Below are positions 4,207-20,294 of a stretch of DNA of 64,000 bases, in pieces. Position 1 is the stretch's first letter, and each line of letters starts with the position of its first letter. Under the pieces are notes generated by a model, which did not search any database, was not told the DNA's origin, and saw only the letters and a list, made by a program, of their open reading frames with translations. The stretch spans positions 337 to 64,336 of the forward strand of contig WRAI01000008.1 in assembly GCA_009780275.1 (NCBI GenBank), in the 5' to 3' direction. The DNA comes from Oscillospiraceae bacterium. GTDB taxonomy: Bacteria > Bacillota > Clostridia > Oscillospirales > UBA929. A program made the translations under genes and the position numbers.

Positions 4207-4489
4207 GTTTGTGTACATATGTTCGCATTGTGTGATGTCGATTGATTTCCCAATTGTCATTCGTGCATAAAATCACCCATTATATTATACCATTTTCGAT
4301 TTTAATTGCGTTCGCCATTGCACCCAATTCACACATCATCTACAACCGTCAAAATCAACCGCTAACTGATGAAAACAATGTTTGCAATGTCAACTATGCG
4401 TTCGATTGAAATGCTGTAAAACTGCGAATTTCTGTGTTATGCCGTGAATGCAAAAAATGAACCCATTACGGATTCATTTCATTGCATTA

Positions 4490-4753: not shown

Positions 4754-4905
4754 TGATTATCACCCCACGTTAATTGTACATAAATCAACAAAGGGTGTAT
4801 GTGACTGTGCAGGTCACAAAAATTTGACACACGCCCAAAATCATGTTACCATGTCATTGTCGAAATCGACAAAATATGTAAAAATGACAAGGAGAAACAC
4901 GATTT

Positions 4906-6657
4906 ATGAAAAAGCGGATTTTATCACTGGCACTTGCAATGTTGATGATGTTTTCATTGACAGGTGCGATGTTGACAACGGGGGCGAATGGTGCGATTTC
5001 AAGCATTACATATATTCCAAATCAAATTGCAAATTTCACGATTGAAAATATTGAATTATTTGGCGGACAAATTGATGAAGTCGCACAAGGACAATCGCAT
5101 ACAATTCGTGGAATTGCACCATTTATTCACAATGAAGGACACGAATTTTACGCATGGGGAATTCGTATGATGAACATGGAAACATTTCAATTTGAATGGA
5201 TTGAATTTTTTTATGAGGGTCAAGTCATCACGTTAGGGCAAGACGAATTTGCTGAACGTCATATGATAACAATAATGCCTGTATGGGTACCCGAAAATCA
5301 AAATCCGCCCGAATTAGCAAATGTTTGCACGATTACAGGTCAACTTCCATGTAATTGCGATGTTTTCGTTTGTGACGTTTGTGGTAGAGGTGATTGTGCT
5401 TGCTGTGATGATTGCAATGAATTTCCTTGCGTTTGCGAACCTGTTTTTTGTCCAGATTGCTATTGGAATCCATGTATTTGTGATGTCGAACGCACAGTAT
5501 GGGATTATGACGCAAGAGCAAACGCAAATTCATGGGCGAGAGATTACATAGAAACGGCATGGGATTTTAATATGCTGTCAAGTCGTGTATTGCAAAATAA
5601 CACATGGCAAGCAGGAATTTCACGTTTACACATTGCAGACATTGCTGCACGGTTTATCGAGCATTATACAAATATGACAATCAATGAATTCATTGATTCG
5701 CTTGACGATGATGATTTATACGAAATTCCCGATTTATATGACATTGCAAATTTGTATGAGTTTGATAGTGATGCGTATGCGATGGTTCGATTGGGCATTT
5801 TTCGGGGTTCGCAGTCATATCGTTGGACGGGTTTGCAATTTAGGGCAAATGATTTAATCACACGACAAGAAGCGTCAACATTATTGGGGCGTTTAGTTTC
5901 GTTATTTTGTGGTGCAATTCCGTCGAACATTACAAACGAACAATTGCCGTTTGAGGAAAATTTGCCGTCGTGGGCAAGAAATTATATTCATTTTTTGTAC
6001 AATCAGCAACCGACTCGAATAATGGGAAATACATGCTCACAGGGCGGATATTTATTTCGACCGTTGATGACATTTCCGACACAACAAATGACGATTGCCG
6101 TTGTACGGACATTGAATACATTGTGTGATTTCGGAAATTGTGAATGTGTAATTGACGTTGAACCGCAGACAAAAACAATTTATGTAATTCGTGAAACTTT
6201 TGGCACAACAAATACACAGGCATTTGAAAATTATCAAGCAATGCGGAATGTATTTGACAATGGAAATTTTGCGACATATACGGCGGTTGAGGTTACATGG
6301 CATAGTAGATTTACAGATAACAGCGGAAATTTTGTATTAGAGAATGTTTGGGTTGGTCAAGAAGTTTGGGGTTGGTTAGCAGGAAGTCATGTTTCGGCAG
6401 TTTGGAATGGCAACGAGGGTGCGAGTTTTGATAGGGGTTCAAAAATGGTAGGAGGAATTAGCAATGGGTGGGCAAGAAATAAAGCATTTGGAACAGAGCA
6501 AGCGTTATGGGATTTTATCGAAGGCGATGAAAATTGGGCACATGAAAATCGTTCAACAGGTTGGGGATTTAGAAAATTTTATTTAGTCAACGGTATATGG
6601 ACAACAGGCGATTCAACATGGAGTGGTTTTGATGGGGATTTGATTGTGAGTGCATAA
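4906..6657 (+). CDS. Secreted surface protein: signal peptide, Cys-rich module, three SLH-like repeats, Trp-rich C-terminal domain
   Basis: 583 aa. Signal peptide MKKRILSLALAMLMMFSLTGA. About 50 aa carry ~16 Cys (CNCDVFVCDVCGRGDCACCDDCNEFPCVCEPVFCPDCYWNPCICD). Three SLH-like segments are present (SWARDYIETAW...ISRLHIADIAARF; AMVRLGIFRG...ITRQEASTLLGRL; SWARNYIHFLY...). Confidence 0.65.
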   Translation: MKKRILSLALAMLMMFSLTGAMLTTGANGAISSITYIPNQIANFTIENIELFGGQIDEVAQGQSHTIRGIAPFIHNEGHEFYAWGIRMMNMETFQFEWIEFFYEGQVITLGQDEFAERHMITIMPVWVPENQNPPELANVCTITGQLPCNCDVFVCDVCGRGDCACCDDCNEFPCVCEPVFCPDCYWNPCICDVERTVWDYDARANANSWARDYIETAWDFNMLSSRVLQNNTWQAGISRLHIADIAARFIEHYTNMTINEFIDSLDDDDLYEIPDLYDIANLYEFDSDAYAMVRLGIFRGSQSYRWTGLQFRANDLITRQEASTLLGRLVSLFCGAIPSNITNEQLPFEENLPSWARNYIHFLYNQQPTRIMGNTCSQGGYLFRPLMTFPTQQMTIAVVRTLNTLCDFGNCECVIDVEPQTKTIYVIRETFGTTNTQAFENYQAMRNVFDNGNFATYTAVEVTWHSRFTDNSGNFVLENVWVGQEVWGWLAGSHVSAVWNGNEGASFDRGSKMVGGISNGWARNKAFGTEQALWDFIEGDENWAHENRSTGWGFRKFYLVNGIWTTGDSTWSGFDGDLIVSA

Positions 6658-6770
6658 TCACAACACGCACAATCCACAGTAGAACCGTTTAGTTCATATG
6701 TGAACATGATAACGTGTTGACGATGTGGATAATCGGTTAAACCGCAGAATTAGCGGTCACAATGATAAAT

Positions 6771-6808
6771 AAAAACGCAATGTCGATTTTGTCAACATTG
6801 CGTTTTTT
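6771..6808. terminator. Bidirectional hairpin terminator between convergent element genes
   Basis: AACGCAATGT / ACATTGCGTT 10-bp stem flanked by an A-run and a T-run. Confidence 0.65.
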
Positions 6809-6836
6809 GTGTTCAAAGGAAAATAAAATTTAATAA

Positions 6837-7199
6837 TTATGCAGATTTTTTGATTTCATACGTTTTGTTACAATGATTCATAAATTGATACATTGCATGA
6901 GTAACAATGTTCGTACAATGCACGATTGCAAAAAATATGTCATCATGCAAATCACCAACGTGTTTATTATGTTTTTGTTGATAGATTTCATCAGCGTGTT
7001 TCAATGCGTTTGCAATAATCGAATATGACAATTGATTGTGTTTTTCATTGTATGCAATTAAATCACACGTGCAACGAATGTCATTGCATTTTTCGTCATC
7101 ACGGTTTTTTGATTCGTGATACAATTTCATCATTTCGTTGATGTCGTTTTGCATTTGAGTTTGTGCAGATTTCGAGAGATTTTTGTTTGTATTATTCAT
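6837..7199 (-). CDS. Hypothetical protein (His/Cys-rich, 120 aa)
   Basis: Clean ORF with an upstream RBS region. No recognisable motif. Confidence 0.5.
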   Translation of the reverse strand: MNNTNKNLSKSAQTQMQNDINEMMKLYHESKNRDDEKCNDIRCTCDLIAYNEKHNQLSYSIIANALKHADEIYQQKHNKHVGDLHDDIFFAIVHCTNIVTHAMYQFMNHCNKTYEIKKSA

Positions 7200-7432
7200 T
7201 TGATAATACTCCTTTTTAATGTAAATTTCGTTGATTTCTCAACGATTTATTATGTATATATTATAACATAAAATCAAGCAAAAGTATATGATTTTTGAAA
7301 AGAAAAATAAAGTCGCAAACGCAGACAGCACAAGGTGTTCAGAGGGTCGAGAGGATTATTTTTCAGAAAGTTTTGATATTGTTTTTTGGTTCGCAAAATG
7401 CGGGCAAATTTTATTACAAAGAGGTATTAAAT

Positions 7433-7672
7433 ATGCAGGTGCAATTACAAGGAATTAGAGCATTAGATTTCAAATCAGACAATGGCGAAAATGTCAAAGG
7501 CACACAGTTATTTGTTACATACAATGATGAGAGTGTAAACGGTTTAATGACGGATAAAATTTTCGTCAAACAAGAAGTTCAAATTCCGCAAGGAATCAAA
7601 CAAAACGACATTTTGAATTTGATGTTCAATAACAAGGGAAAAGTCATCGCAATCAGTCAAGCGAAACAATAA
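7433..7672 (+). CDS. Hypothetical small protein (79 aa)
   Basis: ATG at 7433 follows AAAGAGG. The longer track ORF starting at 7295 lacks an RBS. A terminator hairpin follows at 7675-7706. Confidence 0.5.
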   Translation: MQVQLQGIRALDFKSDNGENVKGTQLFVTYNDESVNGLMTDKIFVKQEVQIPQGIKQNDILNLMFNNKGKVIAISQAKQ

Positions 7673-7722
7673 CGAAAAAATGGGCGATTTATTTCGCCCA
7701 TTAAATTTATGAGGAGCATTTT

Positions 7723-8232
7723 ATGAGCAACAAACAAATTAAACAAGTCAAGTTCGGCGCTGTCATTGGTTACATGATTATCATGTTCGCAGTATTTCGC
7801 AGATTTAGCGGTTTTCATATATTCGATGATGTTCGTATCGGAACATTGCCAATTATCGCATTACACGTCATTCTAACGGCGCTCGCTATCGTTGTATTGT
7901 TCGTTATGATTTATGTGTTCGCAACAAATCATTTCGCACGAAAAGCAATACAGGATAAAATCACAAATACGGCGTGTTTGAAAGAGATAACAACGGCAAA
8001 ATTGATTTCGTATAAATTATCAAATACGGATTACGTCACGTTGGCATTTCGTGCGGAGGGTGTTTCCAAAGATGTATGGGAATCGAAACGCAATGCGATT
8101 CAATCGGCAATCAATTATACAATCATTGGAGATATAGAATATTCAAAAAATTGTTGGTCGGTCGTTTATTTCAACGCACGAAAAGGACGGACAAAATCAA
8201 ATCAAGCGAGGTTAGTTGAGAATGATGTTTAA
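7723..8232 (+). CDS. Membrane protein (2-3 TM), probable anchor partner of the FtsK-like ATPase
   Basis: 169 aa with hydrophobic helices (FGAVIGYMIIMFAVF; LPIIALHVILTALAIVVLFVMIYVF). Its 3' end overlaps the next gene. Confidence 0.6.
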   Translation: MSNKQIKQVKFGAVIGYMIIMFAVFRRFSGFHIFDDVRIGTLPIIALHVILTALAIVVLFVMIYVFATNHFARKAIQDKITNTACLKEITTAKLISYKLSNTDYVTLAFRAEGVSKDVWESKRNAIQSAINYTIIGDIEYSKNCWSVVYFNARKGRTKSNQARLVENDV

Positions 8233-8965
8233 TGTTGGATATGATTTGCAAGCATGGAATGATTACAGCGAGAAAAAATACATTACGGCAGATATTTCAT
8301 CAAGCACAAATTCACAAACAGTCATTTGTGGCATGAGCGGAAGTGGTAAGTCATATTTTTTGAATCAGTTATTTGCAAAATTAGTCAAGGCAGAACCCAA
8401 CGGCGAATTTTATTTTGCAGATTTCAAAGGCGATGATTCATTTGCCCATTTAAGGGATTGCAAAAATTATTATTCGTACAAGAACACAATCAAAGCGTTA
8501 GACATTGTGCATGAGAAGTTACAGCAACGAATGAGCGGTATAGATAAATCAAGAAATCAAATAACGTTAATTTTTGATGAGTATGTAGCGAATATTTTAT
8601 CGTTGTTGAATGAATACAAGAAACACGCCCAAGCAGTAATGAATAAAGTATCAGAATTATTGATGATGGGTCGTTCAATGTGTGTTCGATTGATTGTTTC
8701 ATGCCAGCGTCCCGATGCCGCCGTTTTCAATTTTGGTTCAAGATTGAATTATGAAATTTGCATTATTTTAGGTAAGTTTAACAAATCAATTTATGATATG
8801 TTAATGCCGGAACACATCGACGCCGTCAAAATGAAAATTGACAATCATAATTTCGGTTGTGGCGAGGGTTCGTGCGTAATTGGTTCAGATTTGCATTTTA
8901 TCAAAGTTGGCGAAGTTGAAAACATGGAAAATATAAAGAGAATTTGCAAGCAAGCGTTATCATAA
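8222..8965 (+). CDS. FtsK/SpoIIIE (TcpA-like) DNA translocase ATPase domain protein
   Basis: Walker A GMSGSGKS, Walker B LIFDEY, and an FtsK-type LIVSCQRPD motif. The start is ambiguous between 8216 and 8225. Confidence 0.75.
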   Translation: MMFNVGYDLQAWNDYSEKKYITADISSSTNSQTVICGMSGSGKSYFLNQLFAKLVKAEPNGEFYFADFKGDDSFAHLRDCKNYYSYKNTIKALDIVHEKLQQRMSGIDKSRNQITLIFDEYVANILSLLNEYKKHAQAVMNKVSELLMMGRSMCVRLIVSCQRPDAAVFNFGSRLNYEICIILGKFNKSIYDMLMPEHIDAVKMKIDNHNFGCGEGSCVIGSDLHFIKVGEVENMENIKRICKQALS

Positions 8966-8984
8966 TTTTAGAAAACGATATTAT

Positions 8985-9016
8985 AACACGTTCAGATTTT
9001 GAGCGTGTTTTTTTGT
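8985..9016 (+). terminator. Terminator after the FtsK-like gene
   Basis: AACACG...CGTGTT stem followed by T7. Confidence 0.5.
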
Positions 9017-9119
9017 TGCGGTAGAACACAGAATTTTGCGGTTTAACAGATTGGTTCATGTGTTGTCATGGTTGTGTATTGATTGCGAAAATTAGCAAGT
9101 GTGCCGCAGATTTTCAGAT

Positions 9120-9260
9120 GTCACAATGTCACAGAGGTAATAAGAAATTATAGCGTTTTGGGGTTCGTCATGTTGTATAAAATGAGGGTCAAAAGTGGTT
9201 GAAGTTTGTGCAATTTGACGGACGATTTCGGGCGGTTTTTCGAGTTGAAATAGTATAATA
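9120..9260 (+). repeat. Copy A of a bipartite repeated module (GTCACA..GTCACAGAGGTAATAAGAAATTATA ... GGGCGGTTTTTCGAGTTGAAATAGTATAATA)
   Basis: Near-identical blocks recur at 10641-10671 and 10713-10743, so the module brackets rep. Confidence 0.7.
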
Positions 9261-9500
9261 GGAGTATATAAATAATCAAATTAAAGGAGAAAAATTTTTA
9301 TGGGATTTACATAACGATAAAAGATTTTGCGTGAGGGTACGCAAATCGTGCGAAGCGATTGAATTGGATTACTACATTCAATACATAGGTGTTTTGTGAC
9401 ACATTTAGAAAGTCACAGATATAAAGTTCACAAGTTCACATTGAAAACAATATGCACAATTTTATGTGCAAATAAAATAACGTAAAGGATACTATAAAAA

Positions 9501-10631
9501 ATGAGTAACAATAATTTTCCCAATGATTGCATGAACGAAATGCAAAACGAACGTGTACGCAGATTTTTTATCACAATAAATCATTCAGACGTGCGAGAAT
9601 GGACACATGATAAAATTCGTGATGTATGCGAGAAGTTTCCGACAATTAGATATTTTTGTTTTGCAGATGAAATCGGTAACGAAAGTAAGCGTTTACATTC
9701 GCATATATACATAGAATTAGACAACGCAATGCGGTTTAGTACAATGATTAACAATTTCAATGGGGGTCATGTGCAAAAAATACATGAATTTGGTACGGGA
9801 TTTGATTGTCGTAATTACATACGTAAAGATGGTAGGCATTTTGATAAACATGACACAGTTGTTGAAAATACGTTTTATGAATGGGGGCAAGTTCCGCAAG
9901 ACAAATCACAAGGCAAACGCAACGATTGGAGCGATGCACGAACAATGTTAAATGATGGTTTTGATGTTGATAGTATTATTGATACGTTTCCTCATTTAAT
10001 GCGTTATCGTAATATATTAGAAAATGAAATGTTGCATATGAAATCAAGGGGCAGGCAAATGAAAGGTCGTGCGTATGTAACATATATTCAAGGTCGCACG
10101 AATTTGGGTAAAACAACATGGGTATTTGATGAATATGGCGATGATGAAGTATGCAACATTATTGATTACGAAAACAAAAATCAAATATTCGATAGTTATA
10201 TGGGCGAAAGGGTTTTGTTATTAGACGAGTTCGATTCAAGCATTACATATTCGATTTTGAATGGGTACATTGACAGGCGAAAAGTAAAATTGAGTGCGAG
10301 GTATCACAAAAGAACGGTGTGTTATGAAAAAATATACATCGTATCGAATTTGCCGTTAGAAAAACAATATGAAAAATTGAAAAAAGACAATCGTGCATTT
10401 TACGACACGTTCATTCGCAGAATTGATAAAGTTATGGTTTACACAGATTTTTGCAAATTCAACGAATACACGACAAGTGAATATTTTGAGTTGTTAGAAC
10501 ACGACAAATCAATCAATGGTTTTGCGACGAGTGAAAGTAAGAAACAAACGGGATTTTGTAGTATATGTGGCGAATTTGATTGTATGGGCGATAATTGCGA
10601 CGATTTATGGGGCGAGGATTTAGCGAGTTAG
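9501..10631 (+). CDS. rep: Rolling-circle replication initiator with HUH endonuclease + SF3 helicase architecture (CRESS-DNA-virus/pCRESS-like Rep)
   Basis: Motif I RFFITINH, motif II HSHIYIEL, motif III NYIRKDG (YxxK), Walker A GRTNLGKTT, Walker B VLLLDEFD, motif C YIVSN. There is a C-terminal Cys cluster CSICGEFDCMGDNC. Confidence 0.75.
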   Translation: MSNNNFPNDCMNEMQNERVRRFFITINHSDVREWTHDKIRDVCEKFPTIRYFCFADEIGNESKRLHSHIYIELDNAMRFSTMINNFNGGHVQKIHEFGTGFDCRNYIRKDGRHFDKHDTVVENTFYEWGQVPQDKSQGKRNDWSDARTMLNDGFDVDSIIDTFPHLMRYRNILENEMLHMKSRGRQMKGRAYVTYIQGRTNLGKTTWVFDEYGDDEVCNIIDYENKNQIFDSYMGERVLLLDEFDSSITYSILNGYIDRRKVKLSARYHKRTVCYEKIYIVSNLPLEKQYEKLKKDNRAFYDTFIRRIDKVMVYTDFCKFNEYTTSEYFELLEHDKSINGFATSESKKQTGFCSICGEFDCMGDNCDDLWGEDLAS

Positions 10632-10640
10632 GTTTGGTTA

Positions 10641-10743
10641 GTCACAGTCACAGAAGTAATAAGAAATTATACAAGAAACGGATTCGACTTCGGTCGGGTT
10701 CGTTTTTTATTTGGGCGGTTTTTCAAGTCAGAATAGTATAATA
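10641..10743 (+). repeat. Copy B of the bipartite repeated module; contains the rep terminator
   Basis: GTCACAGTCACAGAAGTAATAAGAAATTATA at 10641-10671 and GGGCGGTTTTTCAAGTCAGAATAGTATAATA at 10713-10743. A hairpin plus T-run lies at 10677-10708. Confidence 0.7.
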
Positions 10744-10780
10744 AATGTATAAAATAAACAAAAAAGGAAGTACATTTAAT

Positions 10781-11074
10781 ATGATGGAAAAACGCATGAA
10801 TATTCCGCAAACAACGAGTATTGAAAACGCATTACATATTTATTATCGTCATGCAGAATTAGGCAACAAAGAGATAACAATTTTATTCGGGCAGCGTTCC
10901 CCGAACACGTTGTCGAAATTGAAAAAGATTGCAAAGGACGAAATGCGAGAACGTGAAATGATGTCGTTTGGTTCAAACACGGTCAACACGGTTGTTGCGT
11001 TTGAAGTTTGGGGTATTGACGTTAAGGATTTAGAGCATCGCATGAAAAAGATTAAACAGTTGAAATTAGCGTAA
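10781..11074 (+). CDS. Small putative DNA-binding protein upstream of int (excisionase/regulator candidate)
   Basis: 97 aa from ATG 10781 (RBS AAGGAAG). The call rests on its position immediately 5' of the integrase and an HTH-like stretch (NKEITILFGQRSPNTLSKLKKIA). Function is inferred only. Confidence 0.4.
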   Translation: MMEKRMNIPQTTSIENALHIYYRHAELGNKEITILFGQRSPNTLSKLKKIAKDEMREREMMSFGSNTVNTVVAFEVWGIDVKDLEHRMKKIKQLKLA

Positions 11075-11112
11075 ATAAAAATATGATGATGTTGATTGCT
11101 TGTAAATGGGTG

Positions 11113-11140
11113 TTGACACTACTTTTCAATGTGTTATAAT
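11113..11140 (+). promoter_or_regulatory. Promoter for int (TTGACA-16 nt-TGTTATAAT, extended -10)
   Basis: TTGACA at 11113-11118 and TATAAT at 11135-11140, preceded by TGT. Confidence 0.55.
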
Positions 11141-11177
11141 TCGTTCACAAGCAATCGACAGGAAAGGATAAAAAAAT

Positions 11178-12353
11178 ATGTCGATTAAAAAGATTACAGG
11201 CAAATCAAAAGACGGTTTGCAAAAGTATCATGTTCGTGTAAATTTCATGTGCAACAGAACAGGCAAATATAAGCAGTTCACAAAAATTGCGTATGGGTTA
11301 GAAAATGCAAAAGAATTAGAAATTCAGTTGCAAAAACAAAAAAATGAACATGATATAGATTCAAAAATGACGATTCAGCAGTTATTTGATGAATACATGG
11401 CAAAGAAACGGTTTGAAATTCGTGAATCAACATGGGATACCCATAAGCGACAATATGAAAATCATGTTCAGTCGATTTTAGGCAATATACGAATTAGCAA
11501 GTTGACAACGCAGATTTTGCAGGATTGGAAAACACAAATTGAATCAAAAGGAATGGCGTTGAAAACAAAACAGCATATGTACGGTAATTTACGAGCGTTG
11601 TTAAATTATGCGGTCAAAATGCAGTACATCAATCAGAATTTATTGTTGATTGTCGGCAATTTCAAAGATGCAATGTACACGAAACAGGAAGTTGATTTTT
11701 ACACGTCGGACGAATTTTTGCAGTTTATTGAAGTTGCGAAAGCACAAGCAATAAAACACGAGCGAGAAAATCACGATTGGTCGGAGTATGAGTATTATGT
11801 ATTTTTCAATATTGCGTTTTATTGTGGTTTGCGAAAAAGTGAAATTCATGGGTTGCAATGGAGTGATATTTGTGGTAATATGTTAAGTGTTCGGCGTTCG
11901 ATTCAACAGAAAATCAAAAATGTTGATATTGTGCAACCCCCTAAAACAAAATCGTCATATCGTACAATGCAAATGCCACAAGCATTGATTGACATTTTGA
12001 ACGAACACAAGAAACGCAAACAGCAATTACACAATTTCAGCGATGACAATTTCATTTTAGGCGTTGAGCGTTCATTGCGTAATAGTTCAGTTGCAAATCG
12101 AAATAGTTTATATGCGGAATTGGCACAGTTAAAGCACATACGCATACATGATTTCAGACATTCTCATGCTTCTGTTTTATGCAATGCAAATGTGAATATT
12201 CAGCAAGTTTCAAAACGAATGGGTCATGCACGAGTTGAGGAAACACGGAACACATATTCGCACTTATATCCTCGTGATGTTGAAATTGCCGTTGATGTAT
12301 TTAACAAAATCGACAATGCGAACAAGCGTCCTCGATTGTACGAAATCGCATGA
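11178..12353 (+). CDS. int: Tyrosine site-specific integrase
   Basis: 391 aa with an N-terminal SAM-like domain. The C-terminal catalytic pattern includes GLRKSE, HDFRHSHAS and a terminal Y (NTYSHLY). It lies next to attR. Confidence 0.88.
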   Translation: MSIKKITGKSKDGLQKYHVRVNFMCNRTGKYKQFTKIAYGLENAKELEIQLQKQKNEHDIDSKMTIQQLFDEYMAKKRFEIRESTWDTHKRQYENHVQSILGNIRISKLTTQILQDWKTQIESKGMALKTKQHMYGNLRALLNYAVKMQYINQNLLLIVGNFKDAMYTKQEVDFYTSDEFLQFIEVAKAQAIKHERENHDWSEYEYYVFFNIAFYCGLRKSEIHGLQWSDICGNMLSVRRSIQQKIKNVDIVQPPKTKSSYRTMQMPQALIDILNEHKKRKQQLHNFSDDNFILGVERSLRNSSVANRNSLYAELAQLKHIRIHDFRHSHASVLCNANVNIQQVSKRMGHARVEETRNTYSHLYPRDVEIAVDVFNKIDNANKRPRLYEIA

Positions 12354-13851: not shown

Positions 13852-14510
13852 GACAATTCCTCACTTTTTATTGGATATAATCCTTCTGCAAACTTCTTAG
13901 ATTTTGCTATAAATGCATCACTCGCAACATCTACACCCAAGAGTCTCATCATATGCTGGACAAACCGTAAGCGTTTATGTAAGTCTTCTGCACTGCACTC
14001 AAGAGTAACAGGGTCACACCATATGCAAAATAAGAGATTGAATAGCTGAGCGCATTCTTCAGGAAATTCTGTTTTTACCGAACCATCTTGATTTCCTTCT
14101 TTTATGATGTCAGTGATAATTGGCGATATCTTTTTCTCCCATGCTCTCAAATCCTCAATAATAAGTCGGGGGCTTCGAGACGTAAGTGCCATTTTTGATA
14201 ACGGCGTTCTCTCAGCATCGTCGTAGAACCTGTTGAACAGACCCACGATTTTTTCTTTAGCTGTCAACATTTTCATGTCAGAGAGCCATTTGTGCATATC
14301 CTGTGCCGTGGAGTCGTTATGTTTGTCTAGTACTGCAGCTAAAATATCCTCTTTCGACTTAAAGTGGTGAAAAATTGTTCCCTTAGACAGCCCTGTCTCG
14401 TTTACAATTTCTTGCGTCGTTGTTTTTTCATAGCCTTTTTCCAAAAAAAGTTTTTCAGAAACAGATAGAATGGTATTGATCGTTTTTTGTGGGTCAATAA
14501 CTCGTGCCAT
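13848..14510 (-). CDS. TetR/AcrR-family transcriptional regulator
   Basis: N-terminal TetR HTH (EKTTTQEIVNETGLSKGTIFHHFKSKEDIL). A 4-nt overlap links it to the MFS gene. Confidence 0.85.
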   Translation of the reverse strand: MARVIDPQKTINTILSVSEKLFLEKGYEKTTTQEIVNETGLSKGTIFHHFKSKEDILAAVLDKHNDSTAQDMHKWLSDMKMLTAKEKIVGLFNRFYDDAERTPLSKMALTSRSPRLIIEDLRAWEKKISPIITDIIKEGNQDGSVKTEFPEECAQLFNLLFCIWCDPVTLECSAEDLHKRLRFVQHMMRLLGVDVASDAFIAKSKKFAEGLYPIKSEELS

Positions 14511-14549
14511 GTGTACAACCTCCTTCTTATATAGTATGATAACACAGCG

Positions 14550-14568
14550 TAGACCGTCGGTCGGTCTA
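14550..14568. promoter_or_regulatory. Palindromic candidate TetR operator TAGACCG-N5-CGGTCTA
   Basis: Perfect 7-bp inverted arms, 40 bp upstream of the TetR start. Confidence 0.45.
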
Positions 14569-14759
14569 TTTTCATGCTATCATTTTCCGCACTCTTTGTC
14601 AAGTATTTTACATACTAACTCGCTTTTGGTAAGCATACATTGACCGACATATCATATGTGCCTTTGTTATAAGCACTGTCAAAAACTTGCTCTTTGCTTT
14701 CTTTTGTGGTATAGTGAGGAGAAAGCCACATCTACAAATATCGAAAGGATTGTATCGAA

Positions 14760-15749
14760 ATGAAAAAAATGTGCAAATTTCTCGCGTTGCTTCTTGTTGT
14801 CACTTTTGCGGCTGCCAGCTTTTCTGCTTGTGAGAACGGAGGCGGTTCTGACGACGGTAATTTCAGCATCGGTATTATTCAATTGTTAGAGCATCCGGCA
14901 CTAGACGCTGCCAGCAACGGCTTTATGGAAGAACTGACGGCGGCGGCAGAGTCCGCGGGATATACCGTAACGTTTGACTTGCAAAACGCGCAAAATGACA
15001 CCGCCACACTAAATACCATCGCGAGCGGCTTTGAGCGGCGCGGGGTAGACTTGGTACTTGCCAATGCCACGCCCAGCGCACAAGCAATGGCCAATGTAAC
15101 CAACGAAATCCCTATCGTTGGTGTATCGATTACTACCTTTGTCGGTGCTGGCTTAGTTGACTCTAACGAAGCACCCGGCGGAAATATTACCGGCGCATCC
15201 GACATGAACCCCGTTCGTGCGCAAATTGAAATGATTTTGGAGTTTTTCCCCGACATCCAAACTATCGGCTTGCTGTATTCATCGGGCGAGGATAACTCTG
15301 TGTATCAAGCGCAATTGGCACGGGATGTTATCGAGGATTTAGGGCTTACCAGCGATTCGGCCACTATCGCCGATGTCAACGACTTGCGCCAAGTCGCTAC
15401 ATCCTTGGCTGGCCGTGTAGATGCCATCTACATACCAACTGACAACAACATCGCCGGCGCAATGGGTGTCATTGAACAAGTCAGCGACAGTTCCAGCACA
15501 CCGTTCTTCGCCGGCGAAGAAAACATGACCATGGGAGGCGGCGTTGCCACACTCAGCGTCAATTACGAGGAGCTGGGGCGGCAAGCCGGCCGTATGGCAG
15601 CGCAAATTCTACTCCAAGGCGCAACCCCGGCAACGATGCCGATTCAAACGGCAGAGCGATACAATTACACTGTCAACGGCTATATGGTCGAGCGTTTGGG
15701 CATTGATGTCCCCACGCGTTTCCAAGAATTTATCCGCATGCCGGAATAA
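14760..15749 (+). CDS. ABC transporter substrate-binding lipoprotein (ABC_sub_bind / BMP-type, the family annotated as putative Trp/Tyr uptake)
   Basis: Lipobox FSAC. The sequence is typical of the PF04392-like family (IGIIQLLEHPALD..., VDAIYIPTDNN). Confidence 0.75.
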   Translation: MKKMCKFLALLLVVTFAAASFSACENGGGSDDGNFSIGIIQLLEHPALDAASNGFMEELTAAAESAGYTVTFDLQNAQNDTATLNTIASGFERRGVDLVLANATPSAQAMANVTNEIPIVGVSITTFVGAGLVDSNEAPGGNITGASDMNPVRAQIEMILEFFPDIQTIGLLYSSGEDNSVYQAQLARDVIEDLGLTSDSATIADVNDLRQVATSLAGRVDAIYIPTDNNIAGAMGVIEQVSDSSSTPFFAGEENMTMGGGVATLSVNYEELGRQAGRMAAQILLQGATPATMPIQTAERYNYTVNGYMVERLGIDVPTRFQEFIRMPE

Positions 15750-15810
15750 TAGAAGTGTTGAAAGGCAGTTTCAACATACCCGAATAATCACTAATTAAAG
15801 GACATATCAT

Positions 15811-16731
15811 ATGTTTTCCATCTTGCAAGTAGCTGTTTCAGAGGGGTTGCTCTGGTCGCTGATGGCGGTCGGCGTTTTTTATACGTTCCGCATTTTAAAT
15901 ATGCCCGATCTGTCCGTCGAAGGCACGTTGATACTGGGCGCGGGATTGGCAGCGCGGCTGATTGCCAACGGCGGTAATCCGTTTGTGGCCACATTACTTG
16001 CCATATGTATTGGCGCGGCAGGCGGCTTTGTCACCGGCATTTTACACACCAAGCTCAAAATACCGTCAATTTTGGCTGGCATTTTGACGATGGTCGGCTC
16101 TTACTCAGTCGCCCTTCGTGTCATGTCACAGCCCAATATTCCGCTGAACCGCTGGCGTACATTCTCTGTCTTCGCGGCATTTGAAAACCTGCTTGGATCA
16201 CTGGGGATAGCCGTTTCTTATGACACCATTGTCATTATCTTCTCTGTTATCGTGGCCATCGCCATTGGTGTGCTCCTCTATTGTTTTGCCGGTACCGAAA
16301 TCGGCTCTGCCATGCGCGCCAGCGGCAACAACTTACAGATGGTCAAAGCGCAAGGCGTCAACACCAATGCCATGATTGTACTGTGTCTGATGATTTCCAA
16401 TGGGCTGGTCGGCTTATCGGGCGCGCTGATTGCGCAATACCAAGGCTTTGCAGTTGTCACCATGGGTGCGGGCACAATTGTCGCCGGTCTTGCCGCAGTG
16501 GTAATTGCCGAAGTGTTATTTAAGTTCCGCAGCTTTTGGGGGCGGTTGATTTCGATTGCTTTGGGTTCAATTATCTATCGCCTCGTTATCGCCCTTGTAT
16601 TGGAATTGGGTATGAATCCCAACGACCTGCGATTGCTTACCGCCATCACTGTTGCCGTCGCCTTGGTGTTGCCGCAAACGCGCGACTGGCTCAAAAGGCT
16701 GTTCGGCAAAGTGCGGGGAGGAGCTTCATAA
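15811..16731 (+). CDS. ABC transporter permease (partner of the BMP-type SBP)
   Basis: 306 aa polytopic membrane protein. Its stop overlaps the ATPase ATG by 1 nt. Confidence 0.8.
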   Translation: MFSILQVAVSEGLLWSLMAVGVFYTFRILNMPDLSVEGTLILGAGLAARLIANGGNPFVATLLAICIGAAGGFVTGILHTKLKIPSILAGILTMVGSYSVALRVMSQPNIPLNRWRTFSVFAAFENLLGSLGIAVSYDTIVIIFSVIVAIAIGVLLYCFAGTEIGSAMRASGNNLQMVKAQGVNTNAMIVLCLMISNGLVGLSGALIAQYQGFAVVTMGAGTIVAGLAAVVIAEVLFKFRSFWGRLISIALGSIIYRLVIALVLELGMNPNDLRLLTAITVAVALVLPQTRDWLKRLFGKVRGGAS

Positions 16732-17525
16732 TGCTACACATTGAAAACCTAAACAAAACCTTCAACCCCGGCACTGTTATTGCCAACCATGCCTTGCGCG
16801 GCGTCAGCCTGACCCTTGCAAGCGGCGATTATGTAACACTCATCGGCGGCAACGGCGCGGGCAAAAGCACGCTGTTAAGTAGTGTCGCCGGTACGTTCAT
16901 GTCTGACACCGGACGCGTTACCATTGACAATGTCGATGTGACAAATTTGCCGGAACATAAGCGAGCGCCATACCTCGGACGCGTCTTTCAAGACCCGATG
17001 ATGGGCACGGCCGCCGGCATGAACATTGAAGAAAACCTTGCCATCGCCTACCGACGCGGCAAGCGGCGCAGTTTGCGCTGGTATATCACGGCAAAAGAGC
17101 GTAAAATCTACCGTGAGCGTCTTGCCACATTGGAGCTGGGGTTAGAAAACCGCATGACTGACAAAGTGGGGTTGCTCTCCGGCGGGCAACGGCAAGCATT
17201 GACCCTCTTAATGGCAACACTCAAGCAACCCAAAGTATTGTTGCTCGACGAACACACTGCCGCACTCGATCCTAAGACAGCACCTAAAGTGCTGGATATC
17301 GGCGACCGAATTATCTCAGAGCATAAACTAACAACCATGATGGTGACGCACAATATGCGCGACGCCATCCGCCACGGCAACCGCCTCATTATGATGAACG
17401 GTGGGCACATTGTGCTAGATGCTTCGGGCGAGGAGAAGAAAAATTTGACAGTGGAAAATCTCATTACCAAGTTCAGCCACGCCAGCGGCGAGGCGTTCGC
17501 GGGAGATCAAGCGCTCTTAGGCTAA
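16731..17525 (+). CDS. ABC transporter ATP-binding protein
   Basis: Walker A GGNGAGKST, signature LSGGQRQ, Walker B LLLDEH. The start is set at ATG 16731 (MLHIENL...). The track ORF from 16536 overlaps the permease. Confidence 0.88.
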   Translation: MLHIENLNKTFNPGTVIANHALRGVSLTLASGDYVTLIGGNGAGKSTLLSSVAGTFMSDTGRVTIDNVDVTNLPEHKRAPYLGRVFQDPMMGTAAGMNIEENLAIAYRRGKRRSLRWYITAKERKIYRERLATLELGLENRMTDKVGLLSGGQRQALTLLMATLKQPKVLLLDEHTAALDPKTAPKVLDIGDRIISEHKLTTMMVTHNMRDAIRHGNRLIMMNGGHIVLDASGEEKKNLTVENLITKFSHASGEAFAGDQALLG

Positions 17526-17585: not shown

Positions 17586-17655
17586 AACTGTCGCAATTGA
17601 CATCGCCTAATAACCTATTATATAATAAAATAACACAACATGCATGGAGGCATTC

Positions 17656-18579
17656 ATGAAGCAATATCTATACAAAGGCGACAAAAACGCCTACAAAGCC
17701 AATCTTCACTGCCACACCACTGTTTCCGACGGCAAATATACGCCCGAGCAAACCAAAGCTATGTATCAAGCCGAGGGATACAGCATTATCGCCTTTACCG
17801 AGCATGACGCGTTAGTTTCACAAGCCTGCTTGAACGATGATAACTTCCTGGCCATCAACGCCTGCGAAGTCAGCGTCACCCAAGACATCAACTATACGCG
17901 CTGCAAAACCTATCACCTCAATTTATATGCAACAGACCCAAATGTCACACAAACGCCTCCTCTCCCGCACATGGCCTACGACGACATCGACGCCATCAAC
18001 CAATATATCCAAAACCGTACAATTGAAGGTTTTCTAGTATGCTACAACCACCCTTATTGGTCGCTGCAAACTTATGATGATTACGAAAAACTACAAGGTT
18101 GCTGGGCGATGGAAATCTACAACCACAGCGGCGAAATCGAGGCATACAACGGCTATAACCCGCAGTCTTACGACGAAAAGCTGCGCACAAGCAACAATAT
18201 TTTCTGCGTTTCGACCGATGATAATCATAATATCCACCCCCTGTACAGCGCCAACTGCGACTCGTTCGGCGGTTGGGTGGTCGTTAACAGCGAAAGCTTG
18301 CAATACCAAGACGTCATAACGGCACTTAGCGATGGCGATTTTTATGCCAGCCAAGGCCCCGAAATCTACGAGGTGTATGTGCAAGATGATAAATTAATTG
18401 TCAAATGCTCCGCCGTTGTCCTCATTGCCGTCTACACCCAAGGGCGAGTATGTTATACTCGCAAAGGCGCAAAGTTAAATCACGCCGAGTTTGACCTTAC
18501 GGGCCACGAAGGATATGTGCGCGTAATGTGCCGCGACAGCCACCATAAGGACGCCAATACAAACGCGCTTTGGTTGTAA
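17656..18579 (+). CDS. PHP-domain metal-dependent phosphoesterase
   Basis: NLHCHTTVSDG PHP motif. GGAGG lies 5 nt upstream of ATG 17656. Confidence 0.7.
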   Translation: MKQYLYKGDKNAYKANLHCHTTVSDGKYTPEQTKAMYQAEGYSIIAFTEHDALVSQACLNDDNFLAINACEVSVTQDINYTRCKTYHLNLYATDPNVTQTPPLPHMAYDDIDAINQYIQNRTIEGFLVCYNHPYWSLQTYDDYEKLQGCWAMEIYNHSGEIEAYNGYNPQSYDEKLRTSNNIFCVSTDDNHNIHPLYSANCDSFGGWVVVNSESLQYQDVITALSDGDFYASQGPEIYEVYVQDDKLIVKCSAVVLIAVYTQGRVCYTRKGAKLNHAEFDLTGHEGYVRVMCRDSHHKDANTNALWL

Positions 18580-18632
18580 AGGAATCTAATCCCCCTGCGA
18601 CAATAAAAAATTTACCATTTTCCAAAAAACAC

Positions 18633-18661
18633 TTGACAAGGCTATCACATCATGCTATACT
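18633..18661 (+). promoter_or_regulatory. Promoter TTGACA-17 nt-TATACT upstream of the Trp leader
   Basis: TTGACA at 18633-18638 and TATACT at 18656-18661. Confidence 0.6.
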
Positions 18662-18700
18662 GTACTAAACAAAAATCACAGTGAGGAGTTTATCCAAACT

Positions 18701-18855
18701 ATGCGTACACACAGCAAAATTTCAATTATGAACGGCGCGGTTGCTTGGCAATGGCGTTTTTGGCGTATTCATAATTGAATTTTACTGCTAAAAATGTGAT
18801 TGTCATGACTTGAAGCAAGGCACAGCGCGGTGAAATTCGCTCGCTGTGTTTTTTT
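18701..18855 (+). promoter_or_regulatory. Candidate tryptophan attenuator: 25-codon leader ORF with 3 Trp codons plus intrinsic terminator
   Basis: Leader ORF 18701-18778 reads MRTHSKISIMNGAVAWQWRFWRIHN (GAGGAG 12 nt upstream). Hairpin CACAGCG/CGCTGTG lies at 18821-18848 and T7 at 18849-18855, 29 nt before the trpB2-like ATG. Confidence 0.6.
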
Positions 18856-18884
18856 GTATCTCAAAACAGGAAGGAAATAAGATC

Positions 18885-20255
18885 ATGTTAGACAAAAACA
18901 ACGTCGTAAAAATTATGTTAGAGGACGCTCATCTCCCGAAGTACTGGTACAACGTCGTGGCCGATATGCCGAACAAGCCCGAGCCATATTATAATCCGCA
19001 AACATTCAATCCTCTTAGCCCAGCAGATATGCAAGTCATTTTCCCCGATGAATTGATTGCACAAGAGGTTTCATCCGAACGATTCATCGAGATCCCTAAG
19101 CCTGTTCGCGAGCTTTACAAGTCTTTCCGCCCCAGCCCACTCTACCGGGCTCGGCAACTCGAAAAGCAACTTGACACCCCGGCGCGTATTTATTACAAAT
19201 ACGAGGGCGGCAACGCCACGGGCAGCCATAAGCTCAACACGGCATTGGCGCAAGTATTTTTCAACAAAGAGGCCGGCATTCGGCGCATCGCCACCGAAAC
19301 AGGTGCTGGGCAATGGGGCTGCGCCGTGGCAATGGCAACGCAGCACTTCGGCCTGGAATGCTGTGTTTACATGGTCAAAGTCAGCTATCAGCAAAAACCA
19401 TATCGAAAATCACTCATGCAAACTTTTGGCGCTAAAATCAACGCCAGCCCGTCGGCTCTGACAAACACGGGACGCGCCATTCTCGCGGCAAATCCAGACA
19501 GCACGGGCAGCCTCGGCATCGCCATCAGCGAAGCCGTTGAGGATGCGGCGACAAACACCGATACCAACTACGCGCTGGGCAGTGTGCTAAATCATGTCTG
19601 CCTACATCAGACAGTCATTGGCCAAGAGAGCAAACTACAGCTCGAAATGGTCGACGAATACCCCGATATCATTTTCGCCTGCTGCGGCGGCGGCAGCAAT
19701 TTTGCCGGCATGACTTTTCCCTTTGTACCCGATAAACTCAGCGGCAAAAACATTCGACTTGTCGCTGTTGAACCAACCGCCTGCCCAACATTGACCAAAG
19801 GTGTCTACGCCTTTGACTATGGCGACACCGCCAAAATGGCGCCCATCGCCAAAATGTATACGCTGGGCCACAACTTCATGCCGGAGGGCATTCATGCCGG
19901 CGGCCTGCGTTATCACGGCGATTCAGCATTAGTGTCCAAGCTATACCATGACGGCATTATTGAGGCAAAATCCTATCCACAAAGCAAGGTGTTTGATGCA
20001 GCGGTGCAATTTGCGAGAGCCGAGGGCATCGTGCCCGCCCCCGAGAGCGCGCACGCCATCCGTGCTGCCATCGACCACGCCAACGAATGTAAGCAAAGCG
20101 GCAAAGATGAAGTCATTCTTATCTCACTCAGTGGCAACGGCTACTTTGACATGACAGCGTATGACACCTATTTCAGCGGCAATATGCAAGATTTTGAGTA
20201 TAGCGGCACAGCTGTTGAAAATGCACTGGACGAATTGCCCTGCGTGAATGTCTAA
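18885..20255 (+). CDS. TrpB-like PLP-dependent enzyme (tryptophan synthase beta, TrpB2 type)
   Basis: 456 aa with the long N-terminal extension typical of TrpB2, the PLP-lysine motif GSHKLN, and GGGSNFAG. The start is at ATG 18885 after AGGAAGGA. Confidence 0.85.
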   Translation: MLDKNNVVKIMLEDAHLPKYWYNVVADMPNKPEPYYNPQTFNPLSPADMQVIFPDELIAQEVSSERFIEIPKPVRELYKSFRPSPLYRARQLEKQLDTPARIYYKYEGGNATGSHKLNTALAQVFFNKEAGIRRIATETGAGQWGCAVAMATQHFGLECCVYMVKVSYQQKPYRKSLMQTFGAKINASPSALTNTGRAILAANPDSTGSLGIAISEAVEDAATNTDTNYALGSVLNHVCLHQTVIGQESKLQLEMVDEYPDIIFACCGGGSNFAGMTFPFVPDKLSGKNIRLVAVEPTACPTLTKGVYAFDYGDTAKMAPIAKMYTLGHNFMPEGIHAGGLRYHGDSALVSKLYHDGIIEAKSYPQSKVFDAAVQFARAEGIVPAPESAHAIRAAIDHANECKQSGKDEVILISLSGNGYFDMTAYDTYFSGNMQDFEYSGTAVENALDELPCVNV

Positions 20256-20265
20256 ACACTCTTAC

Positions 20266-20294
20266 AAAAAAACGCTCATTCGAGCGTTTTTTTT
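20266..20294. terminator. Bidirectional terminator between trpB2-like and the DtxR-family gene
   Basis: AAAAAAACGCTC-ATTC-GAGCGTTTTTTTT. Confidence 0.7.

What the first reader, a model, noticed from the sequence alone, without database searches (positions are those of the whole stretch)
18633..18887. Ribosome-mediated tryptophan attenuator candidate (Trp-rich leader peptide) upstream of a stand-alone TrpB2-like gene
A near-consensus promoter lies at 18633-18661. After it comes a 25-codon ORF (18701-18778, SD GAGGAG) encoding MRTHSKISIMNGAVAWQWRFWRIHN, with three Trp codons within six positions. Trp is normally among the rarest residues. About 42 nt after its stop there is a GC-rich hairpin (18821-18848) and T7, and the trpB2-like gene starts 29 nt later. 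This matches the trpL-type leader-peptide attenuator architecture. Clostridia usually control trp genes with T-boxes, and I see no T-box specifier or conserved T-box sequence and no TRAP (G/U)AG repeats here. Leader-peptide control of a TrpB2 (indole-salvage-type) gene in a Clostridium would be unusual.
Basis: partly seen in the sequence, partly recalled or inferred. Interest (0 to 1): 0.65.

Follow-up and report, generated by a model that had tools for sequence, protein, structure and literature searches.

The report
Tryptophan leader-peptide attenuator before trpB2
A short Trp-rich mini-gene and a set of competing RNA hairpins sit between the only promoter and a stand-alone tryptophan-synthase-like gene in an uncultured Oscillospiraceae bacterium. 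The arrangement looks like an E. coli-style ribosome-sensed tryptophan switch, in a bacterial group that normally uses other devices for this job.

Summary
All the parts are there: a promoter (TTGACA, 17 nt, TGcTATACT); a 25-codon ORF with Trp at codons 16, 18 and 21; an intrinsic terminator with U7; and a TrpB2 gene 29 nt further on, whose ATG is at 18885, not 18886.

Folding finds the full classical helix set:
- **1:2** (18746-71 : 18776-805, -25.5 kcal/mol) carries the Trp codons in its 5' strand.
- **2:3** (18776-805 : 18811-39, -19.0) starts at the leader stop codon.
- **3:4** (terminator, -17.7).

In constrained folds, a ribosome masked at any Trp codon lets 2:3 form before the terminator's 3' arm emerges. 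No ribosome, or a ribosome at the stop codon, does not. Chance gives such a Trp-rich ORF in this leader at p about 0.0005.

Orthologous trpB2 genes in related Clostridia carry either UGG-specifier T-boxes or TRAP-like (G/U)AG repeats. The gene is therefore Trp-regulated in this clade, and the window uses a third device.

Weak points:
- The organism is a singleton MAG and the nearest TrpB2 is 74% identical, so there is no conservation or covariation evidence.
- An extra 21-bp helix between the 5' end and the terminator's 3' arm is unexplained.
- Nothing has been tested experimentally.

Verdict: a probable new member of a known kind, confidence about 0.65.

The parts
18633..18661 (+). Sigma-70-type promoter: TTGACA (18633-38), 17-nt spacer, TGc-TATACT (-10 at 18656-61). 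The transcription start is inferred near 18667-18670.
   Evidence: 11 of 12 consensus positions, with an extended -10 TG. No + strand promoter-like site was found between the terminator and the trpB2 start codon at 18885.
18670..18691 (+). Segment A: the 5' end of the leader transcript, including the leader SD (GAGGAG, 18683-88). It is complementary to 18833-18856, which covers the terminator loop, 3' arm and U tract.
   Evidence: The duplex energy is -25.3 kcal/mol and 0 of 3000 dinucleotide shuffles reach it.
18701..18778 (+). Leader ORF of 25 codons, MRTHSKISIMNGAVAWQWRFWRIHN. Trp codons are at 18746-48, 18752-54 and 18761-63. The stop codon UGA is at 18776-78.
   Evidence: chance p about 0.00045. 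The ORF is kept in the second assembly of the same species (L081) with one missense change, G18735C (Gly12Ala).
18746..18771 (+). Segment 1: the 5' strand of helix 1:2. It contains all three Trp codons.
   Evidence: the 1:2 hairpin is -25.5 kcal/mol, z = -7.1, reached by 0 of 200 shuffles; 0 of 3000 shuffles.
18776..18805 (+). Segment 2: pairs either with segment 1 or with segment 3. It begins with the leader stop codon.
   Evidence: (inverted repeat I4, 18777-88 / 18827-38).
18811..18839 (+). Segment 3: pairs with segment 2 to form the antiterminator. The outer helix is 13 bp (18776-88 : 18827-39) and the inner helices are 18795-805 : 18811-24; together they are -19.0 kcal/mol. Alternatively it pairs with segment 4 to form the terminator.
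   Evidence: z = -2.4, reached by 7 of 200 shuffles; 2% of shuffles reach the 2:3 energy.
18819..18855 (+). Intrinsic terminator (3:4): stems 18819-27 : 18842-50 and 18829-33 : 18837-41, then a U7 tract at 18849-55.
   Evidence: -17.7 kcal/mol, z = -3.8.
18717..18783 (+). Extra 16-nt inverted repeat I1 (18717-32 / 18768-83, 94% complementary). It competes with the top of 1:2 and the start of 2:3. Its role is unknown.
18885..20255 (+). Stand-alone trpB2 (TrpB-like PLP enzyme, 456 aa). Its own SD, AAGGA, is at 18871-75.
20266..20293 (+). Terminator after trpB2. It makes the gene monocistronic.
   Evidence: 12-bp stem followed by a T run.

Best explanation
This is a ribosome-mediated (leader-peptide) transcription attenuator that senses charged tRNA-Trp and controls the stand-alone trpB2 gene.

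**How it would work.** Transcription starts at the 18633-61 promoter. A ribosome then translates the 25-codon leader.

- **Trp scarce.** The ribosome stalls at UGG 16, 18 or 21 and covers segment 1. Segment 2 (18776-18805) is left free to pair with segment 3 (18811-18839). This ties up the terminator's 5' arm and loop before its 3' arm is made. RNA polymerase reads through and trpB2 is expressed.
- **Trp plentiful.** The ribosome runs to the UGA at 18776. It covers the first half of segment 2, or leaves so that 1:2 re-forms. Segment 3 then pairs with segment 4, and transcription stops at the U7 tract.

**Shown here:**
- The parts and their positions.
- The stability of the helices and how rarely shuffled sequence matches it.
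- The dependence of the predicted fold on ribosome position.

**Inferred:**
- That the leader is translated.
- That stalling happens.
- That the choice between helices is made kinetically during transcription.
- That the extra A:D helix helps to hold segment 4 once 2:3 has formed.
For: 1. **The terminator must be conditional.** No + strand promoter-like site was found in the 29 nt between the T run and the start codon. The nearest promoter, at 18633-61, is separated from trpB2 by a good intrinsic terminator, so expression needs read-through.
2. **The Trp-rich ORF is not chance.** Three in-frame UGG codons fall within six codons of an ATG-started, SD-preceded ORF, placed exactly upstream of a Trp-synthase-like gene. 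Shuffles give p about 0.00045.
3. **The helix set is complete.**
   - 1:2 is -25.5 kcal/mol (z = -7.1).
   - 2:3 is -19.0 (z = -2.4).
   - 3:4 is -17.7 (z = -3.8).
   - When 18779-18810 is shuffled, 1:2 and 2:3 are reached together in 0 of 3000 trials.
4. **The geometry is right.**
   - The Trp codons sit in the 5' strand of 1:2.
   - Four codons follow the last Trp.
   - The stop codon is the first triplet of segment 2.
   - With RNA emerged to 18841, the outer 2:3 helix forms 10-13 of 13 bp with a ribosome at W16, W18 or W21.
   - It forms 0 of 13 bp with no ribosome or with a ribosome at the stop codon.
5. **The gene is Trp-regulated in this clade.** Orthologues have T-boxes with a UGG specifier or TRAP-like (G/U)AG repeats over the SD and AUG. 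The window has neither.
6. **There is precedent in Firmicutes.** His leader peptides replacing T-boxes have been predicted in bacilli (PMC2965389). The bmrB-bmrCD system is a demonstrated case of ribosome-mediated transcription attenuation (PMC4191407).
Against: - **No comparative support.** The leader exists only in this species, in the window and in L081. None of 166 related trpB2 loci has a Trp-rich leader, so there is no covariation evidence.
- **The 2:3 helix is only moderately unusual on its own.** Between 2% and 3.5% of shuffles reach it.
- **Equilibrium does not favour 2:3.** In full-length folds without segment A, the terminator wins at every ribosome position, so the switch must be kinetic.
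- **Segment A complicates the off state.** With A present, the A:D helix replaces the terminator at every ribosome position unless A itself is masked. 'Off' in plentiful Trp is therefore not guaranteed by thermodynamics.
- **The SD-to-AUG spacing of 12 nt is long.**
- **Coupling may be weak.** In B. subtilis, RNA polymerase outruns the lead ribosome (cited in PMC9226507). Classical coupling may therefore be weak in Firmicutes.
- **The Trp codons are interspersed, not tandem.**
Confidence: 0.65

Rival explanations
1. This is an attenuator gated by the A:D helix rather than by Trp-codon stalling. The 5' end of the transcript, including the leader SD, captures the terminator's 3' arm and U tract. 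Read-through would then depend on whether segment A is free: on translation initiation at the leader, or on a protein or RNA bound to A. The Trp codons would be secondary or incidental.
For: - A:D is the strongest alternative to the terminator: -25.3 kcal/mol, reached by 0 of 3000 shuffles.
- It is in the full-length MFE for every ribosome position. It disappears only when the SD and start region are masked.
- Its nucleation site (18833-38) is transcribed before the terminator's 3' arm.
Against: - It does not explain the three in-frame UGG codons (p about 0.00045).
- It does not explain the very strong 1:2 helix built on those codons (z = -7.1).
- It does not explain why segment 2 starts at the stop codon.
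- A long-range helix spanning about 150 nt should fold more slowly than the local terminator hairpin.
- No known factor-binding motif is present.
Confidence: 0.13
2. This is a constitutive, leaky terminator or insulator between the promoter and trpB2. The small ORF and the alternative helices would be chance features with no regulatory role.
For: - The locus is a singleton with no conservation.
- 2:3 alone is reached by 2-3.5% of shuffles.
- Across the 64 kb, small Trp-rich ORFs do arise by chance: five were observed against 1.7 expected.
Against: - Several improbable features coincide at the one Trp gene in the window: the ORF (p about 0.00045), 1:2 (0 of 3000 shuffles) and A:D (0 of 3000).
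- A strong terminator directly in front of a gene that has no + strand promoter-like site in the 29 nt after it makes little sense unless read-through is conditional.
- Orthologues are Trp-regulated.
Confidence: 0.08
3. The promoter-to-terminator unit (about 190 nt) is a gene in its own right. It would encode a small Trp/Arg-rich peptide, a stable small RNA, or both, with the paired 5' and 3' ends protecting the RNA. trpB2 would merely receive read-through.
For: - The terminated RNA would fold with its two ends paired (A:D), which hides the SD.
- Attenuator-derived RNAs and leader peptides acting in trans are known in Sinorhizobium: rnTrpL (PMC6614838) and peTrpL (PMC7298713).
Against: - Nothing in the 25-residue sequence argues for an independent function, and no homologue search was run with it (it is too short).
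- There is no second copy in the window.
- This reading does not exclude attenuation and would be an add-on to it.
- trpB2 still depends on this promoter.
Confidence: 0.06

Closest known systems
E. coli / enterobacterial trpL leader-peptide attenuator (Rfam RF00513 Trp_leader)
   Same: - A short ORF with clustered Trp codons near its 3' end.
- Helix 1:2 built on those codons.
- A stop codon at the border of segment 2.
- A 2:3 antiterminator that overlaps the 5' arm of an intrinsic terminator followed by a U tract.
- The same predicted logic: a stall gives read-through.
   Different: - No sequence or covariance-model similarity; there is no RF00513 hit at E <= 10.
- 25 codons with the pattern W-x-W-x-x-W, instead of 14 codons with tandem WW.
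- It controls a single stand-alone trpB2 rather than the trp operon.
- The host is a Clostridia-class Firmicute.
- It has an extra 5' segment A that pairs with the terminator's 3' arm, and an extra 16-nt inverted repeat.
Actinobacterial trp attenuators (Corynebacterium and Streptomyces; candidate attenuator upstream of C. diphtheriae trpB2A), PMC1262725
   Same: A Gram-positive host. Leader peptides with two or three UGG codons, GC-rich terminators and U tracts. A gene labelled trpB2 is among the predicted targets.
   Different: - A different phylum.
- The conserved gGCC-rGCy-GGCC triples described there are absent.
- Those attenuators are conserved across genera, whereas this one is a singleton.
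His leader peptides replacing T-boxes upstream of hisS paralogues and hisZ in bacilli (PMC2965389), and bmrB-bmrCD ribosome-mediated attenuation in B. subtilis (PMC4191407)
   Same: Firmicute examples of ribosome-dependent transcription attenuation. In the first case the leader peptide stands where relatives have a T-box, as seen here.
   Different: The sensed signal differs: His codons in one case, antibiotic-induced stalling in the other. So do the genes controlled and the sequences.
tRNA-Trp T-box leaders (RF00230) and TRAP (G/U)AG-repeat sites
   Same: They control orthologous trpB2 genes in the nearest relatives and answer the same physiological question, Trp supply.
   Different: The window has neither element. 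The sensor here would be the translating ribosome, not an RNA-tRNA contact or a Trp-binding protein.

Membership tests
Leader-peptide (trpL-type) transcription attenuator | Short translatable ORF (SD plus start codon) inside the 5' leader | tested here: met
   GAGGAG at 18683-88 and ATG at 18701; 25 codons. The SD-to-AUG spacing of 12 nt is longer than usual. Translation itself was not tested.
Leader-peptide (trpL-type) transcription attenuator | Cluster of codons for the regulating amino acid near the 3' end of the ORF | tested here: met
   UGG at codons 16, 18 and 21 of 25. The chance probability in this leader is about 0.00045.
Leader-peptide (trpL-type) transcription attenuator | Intrinsic terminator between the leader ORF and the structural gene, with no promoter after it | tested here: met
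   Hairpin 18819-50 (-17.7 kcal/mol, z = -3.8) plus U7. No + strand promoter-like site in the 29 nt before the ATG.
Leader-peptide (trpL-type) transcription attenuator | Mutually exclusive helices 1:2, 2:3 and 3:4, with the regulatory codons in segment 1 and the stop codon at or next to segment 2 | tested here: met
   1:2 is -25.5, 2:3 is -19.0 and 3:4 is -17.7 kcal/mol. 2:3 forms only with a ribosome masked at the Trp codons. 1:2 and 2:3 are reached together in 0 of 3000 shuffles. This is prediction only.
Leader-peptide (trpL-type) transcription attenuator | Conservation of the leader ORF and helices (covariation) in orthologous loci | tested here: inconclusive
   The leader is absent from all 166 related loci, which are at most 74% identical in TrpB2. 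The only other copy is the same species with one SNP. No relatives are close enough to test.
Leader-peptide (trpL-type) transcription attenuator | Trp-dependent read-through that requires leader translation | not testable with these tools
   This needs reporter fusions, Term-seq or ribosome profiling.
Rfam RF00513 Trp_leader (homology) | Match to the covariance model | tested here: not met
   No RF00513 hit in 18500-19000 at E <= 10. The element works like a Trp leader but is not a homologue.
T-box leader (RF00230) | Stem I with a specifier loop, and the T-box sequence in an antiterminator bulge | tested here: not met
   No hit at E <= 10. Relatives score 101-103 bits with a GAA-UGG-A specifier.
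TRAP binding site | Several (G/U)AG triplets separated by 2-3 nt | tested here: not met
   The longest chain in the window's -80..+30 region is 1. Relatives have 4-8.
TnaC-type Trp-induced arrest peptide | Conserved W12, D16 and P24 before the stop codon, with Rho-dependent termination downstream (features recalled from own knowledge) | tested here: not met
   The peptide ends in ...RIHN with no Pro and none of the W-x3-D spacing. An intrinsic terminator follows it.
TrpB2 (TrpB-like PLP enzyme) for the controlled gene | Full-length match above the curated cut-off | tested here: met
   NF009057 scores 717 bits against a cut-off of 366, and TIGR01415 scores 622 against 519. Pfam gives PALP. The best solved relatives are 6hul, 4qys and 6hte.

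The most novel reading that the evidence does not exclude
This is a five-segment attenuator adapted to a host in which ribosomes do not keep pace with RNA polymerase. The SD-containing 5' end (A) is a second antiterminator strand. It captures the terminator's 3' arm and U tract and stacks on 2:3. A stalled ribosome plus a queued one occlude the start codon, which keeps A ribosome-free. Leader initiation, Trp-codon stalling and termination would thus be wired together in a way not described for trpL-type leaders. The element would also have arisen de novo in one lineage, replacing an ancestral TRAP-like or T-box control of the same gene.
Probability: 0.2. Interest if true: 0.65.

Novelty: new member of a known kind. 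Interest (0 to 1): 0.45.

Why it matters
Classical leader-peptide attenuation of amino-acid genes is textbook for Proteobacteria and known in Actinobacteria. Firmicutes are thought to rely on T-boxes, TRAP and riboswitches, and B. subtilis does not couple translation to transcription.

A Trp leader peptide in an Oscillospiraceae genome, standing exactly where relatives have a UGG T-box or a TRAP-like site, would show three things:
- The same gene can swap between three unrelated Trp sensors over short evolutionary distances.
- Such attenuators can arise de novo.
- Ribosome-sensed attenuation is usable in Clostridia.

It also marks TrpB2 as a Trp-starvation-induced gene in these organisms, which fits an indole-salvage role.

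The value is limited by two things: this is a single uncultured genome, and the mechanism class is already known.

Tried and rejected
- **Known RNA families.** I scanned the whole window at gathering threshold and 18500-19000 at E <= 10. There is no T-box, Trp_leader or riboswitch, only chance-level hits.
- **Homologous leaders.** blastn and tblastn of the leader and peptide against 80 genome loci found nothing. A scan for Trp-rich small ORFs upstream of trpB2 in 161 loci, and then in 6 more fetched by protein identity, found none except the same-species contig L081.
- **Closer relatives.** Scans of genome contigs, metagenome contigs and the 5.8-billion-protein collection give nothing above 74% identity. 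Covariation analysis and a covariance model were therefore pointless, and I did not build one.
- **First 2:3 attempt.** I initially considered only the inner pairing 18795-805: 18811-24 (-4.6 kcal/mol) and nearly rejected the classical model. The outer 13-bp helix 18776-88: 18827-39 appeared only in the masked co-transcriptional folds.
- **Mobile-element or repeat origin of the A/D inverted repeat.** There is no second copy of the leader in the window.
- **TRAP gene.** The flanks are short, so this is uninformative.
- **Leader on the upstream ABC transporter (14510-14760).** It has a short 5' UTR and no leader ORF.
- **Kinetic folding simulation.** This was not available. Only stepwise MFE folds were done, and they show several competing structures and do not settle the order of events.
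Full report
**1. The observation**

- **Promoter.** The -35 box TTGACA is at 18633-38. A 17-nt spacer follows, then the -10 box TATACT at 18656-61, preceded by an extended TG. It matches 11 of 12 consensus positions.
- **Leader SD.** GAGGAG is at 18683-88, 12 nt before an ATG at 18701.
- **Leader ORF.** The ORF 18701-18778 encodes MRTHSKISIMNGAVAWQWRFWRIHN. Its UGG codons are at 18746, 18752 and 18761.
- **Terminator.** A hairpin at 18819-18850 is followed by T7 at 18849-55.
- **Structural gene.** It has its own terminator at 20266-93.

The gene product is a TrpB2-type enzyme. It scores 717 bits against NCBIfam NF009057 (cut-off 366), and its best solved relatives are the archaeal TrpB2 chains 6hul, 4qys and 6hte.

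No + strand promoter-like site lies in the 29 nt between the T run and the start codon. trpB2 can therefore be transcribed only by reading through this terminator.

**2. Chance**

A small ORF with at least three Trp in six codons on the + strand of this 251-nt leader appears in 0.045% of shuffles. The 64-kb window holds four other such ORFs against 1.7 expected. All four start with TTG and fall within the spans of long ORFs. Only this one is intergenic, ATG-started and preceded by an SD.

**3. Structure**

Folding the whole leader gives z = -3.9. Taking it apart gives a complete classical set of helices.

| Helix | Coordinates | Energy (kcal/mol) | Against shuffles |
|---|---|---|---|
| 1:2 | 18746-71 : 18776-805 | -25.5 | z = -7.1 |
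| 2:3 antiterminator | outer 13 bp 18776-88 : 18827-39; inner 18795-805 : 18811-24 | -19.0 | z = -2.4 |
| 3:4 terminator | 18819-50 | -17.7 | z = -3.8 |

Helix 1:2 has all three Trp codons in its 5' strand, and the stop codon sits just past its apical loop. When 18779-18810 is shuffled 3000 times, the 1:2 energy is never reached. The 2:3 energy is reached in 2% of trials, and both together are never reached.

The key test was constrained folding of the RNA that has emerged up to 18841, before the terminator's 3' arm exists. Ribosome footprints of about 30 nt were masked.

| Ribosome position | Predicted state |
|---|---|
| None | 1:2 forms and 2:3 is absent |
| W16, W18 or W21 in the A site | Outer 2:3 helix forms, 10-13 of 13 bp |
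| Stop codon in the A site | 2:3 is absent, because its 5' strand is covered |

That is the logic of trpL.

At equilibrium on the full-length RNA, with segment A left out, the terminator wins in every case. As in E. coli, the decision would therefore have to be kinetic.

**4. What does not fit neatly**

- **A:D helix.** The 5' end of the transcript, including the leader SD (segment A, 18670-91), is complementary to the terminator loop, 3' arm and U tract (18833-56). The helix has 21 bp, the duplex is -25.3 kcal/mol, and 0 of 3000 shuffles reach it.
  - With A included, A:D replaces the terminator in the full-length MFE at every ribosome position. The terminator returns only when the SD and start region are masked.
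  - A:D can coexist with the outer 2:3 helix, directly abutting it.
  - I read it as a lock that captures segment 4 once 2:3 has formed, which is inference. It could instead be the main antiterminator; that is the first rival explanation.
- **Inverted repeat I1.** A 16-nt repeat (18717-32 / 18768-83) adds a further competing structure.
- **Segment A with segment 2.** A 7-bp pairing between them adds another.
- **SD-to-AUG spacing.** At 12 nt it is long.

**5. Relatives**

The window's organism is annotated as an Oscillospiraceae MAG. Its TrpB2 is a singleton, and the next best proteins are 72-74% identical.

A second assembly of the same species (L081) differs at one base in 7371. That base is G18735C inside the leader ORF (Gly12Ala), outside all the main helices.

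None of 166 other trpB2 loci has a Trp-rich leader or any similarity to this one. They are informative all the same.

- **T-boxes.** Several Clostridia loci (L010, L031, L084, L088; the T-box sequence is also visible in L089 and L091) have a T-box directly upstream. The specifier reads GAA-UGG-A, which is Trp.
- **TRAP-like repeats.** 28 of 44 Bacillota loci carry chains of 4-8 (G/U/A)AG triplets with 2-3 nt spacers across the SD and start codon. This includes all four nearest relatives fetched by identity.
  - In background windows of the same loci, chains of at least 4 occur at 0.28% and chains of at least 5 never occur in 3972 windows.
  - This is the pattern TRAP recognises in (G/U)AG repeats in Bacillus (PMC3064811).
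- **Exclusivity.** The T-box loci listed above have chains of at most 3, and the window has 1.

The same orthologous gene is therefore under Trp control by at least two known devices in this clade. The window has a third in the same place.

**6. Comparison with what is known**

The element works like the trpL attenuator of E. coli and the actinobacterial trp attenuators (PMC1262725). It is not a homologue of either, since there is no RF00513 hit at E <= 10.

In Firmicutes, amino-acid-sensing leader peptides are rare. His leaders that replace T-boxes were predicted in bacilli in 2010, and were then said to be the first outside Proteobacteria and Actinobacteria (PMC2965389). Ribosome-mediated transcription attenuation has been demonstrated for bmrB-bmrCD (PMC4191407). 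B. subtilis RNA polymerase outruns the ribosome (cited in PMC9226507), which is a reason for caution here.

I did not find a described Trp leader peptide in Clostridia, or one controlling a stand-alone trpB2 in Firmicutes, in the papers searched. That search was not exhaustive.

**7. Verdict**

It remains a prediction for a single uncultured genome, without comparative or experimental backing.

- Confidence that this is a conditional attenuator: about 0.85.
- Confidence that it senses Trp through ribosome stalling on the leader: about 0.65.
- Novelty: a new, independently evolved member of a known kind.
- Open question: the extra 5' helix may make it a variant.
- Interest: moderate (0.45).

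Noticed in passing
Related loci, -80..+30 around the trpB2 start: e.g. L003 2924-3036, L002, L004, L007, L030, L085 and L162-L167 near 950-1003: There is a conserved TRAP-like element: 4-8 (G/U/A)AG triplets with 2-3 nt spacers over the SD and AUG of trpB2. It occurs in 28 of 44 Bacillota loci. Background windows never reach 5 repeats (0 of 3972). It has short 5' UTRs, and the loci with recognised T-boxes have chains of at most 3. This suggests TRAP-type translational control of trpB2 in many uncultured Clostridia.
   Followed up: partly
L010 2695-2942, L031 2653-2915, L084 1648-1904, L088 1642-1903 (also L089 and L091): T-box leaders sit directly upstream of orthologous trpB2. The three whose alignments were read (L084, L031, L010) have a UGG (Trp) specifier. 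So three different Trp-sensing devices occupy the same position in one gene family.
   Followed up: yes
window 18735: The only difference between the window and a second assembly of the same species (L081, 7371 nt) is G18735C. It lies inside the leader ORF (Gly12Ala) and outside the main helices. It could be strain variation or an assembly difference.
   Followed up: partly
window 18847-18858 and 18889-18900: A 12-nt inverted repeat (83% complementary) joins the terminator's U tract and trpB2 codons 2-5. It could add a translational component in read-through transcripts.
   Followed up: no
window 18876-18884 versus relatives: The 8-mer AAUAAGAU just before the window's trpB2 AUG matches the start of the relatives' element (AAUAAGAUGAGGAGAGAUGAG...). 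It could be a vestige of a lost repeat site, or a chance match in AT-rich sequence.
   Followed up: no
window 4005-12353: tRNA-Pro(cgg) at 4005-4081 is followed by several ORFs with no Pfam hit, an FtsK/SpoIIIE-like ATPase (8216-8965) and a phage-type integrase (11178-12353). This may be an integrated mobile element.
   Followed up: no
window 44343-49474 (- strand): hisS and aspS lie in a run of four same-strand ORFs headed by a TraB/PrgY-family gene; an APH-family phosphotransferase ORF sits between hisS and aspS. The gap before hisS is 18 nt. No T-box was found there or anywhere else in the 64 kb, which is unusual for Firmicute aminoacyl-tRNA synthetase genes.
   Followed up: no
window 14760-17525: An ABC transporter with a PF04392 substrate-binding protein lies two genes upstream of trpB2. 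A paper title retrieved (PMC9382623) describes Streptococcus suis TrpX as part of a tryptophan uptake system; from memory TrpX belongs to this Pfam family, which I did not check here. A divergent TetR gene is next to it. Its 5' UTR is short and has no leader ORF.
   Followed up: partly
window 17597-17626: A perfect consensus promoter (TTGACA, 18 nt, TATAAT) sits in front of the PHP/CehA-family metallohydrolase gene (17644-18579) directly upstream of the leader. No terminator was found between that gene and the leader promoter.
   Followed up: no
L014 1648-1733; L026 199-310, L039 2635-2747, L150 1680-1790: A NiCo riboswitch lies just downstream of trpB2 in L014. TPP riboswitches on the opposite strand lie just upstream of trpB2 in three loci, controlling divergent genes.
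   Followed up: no
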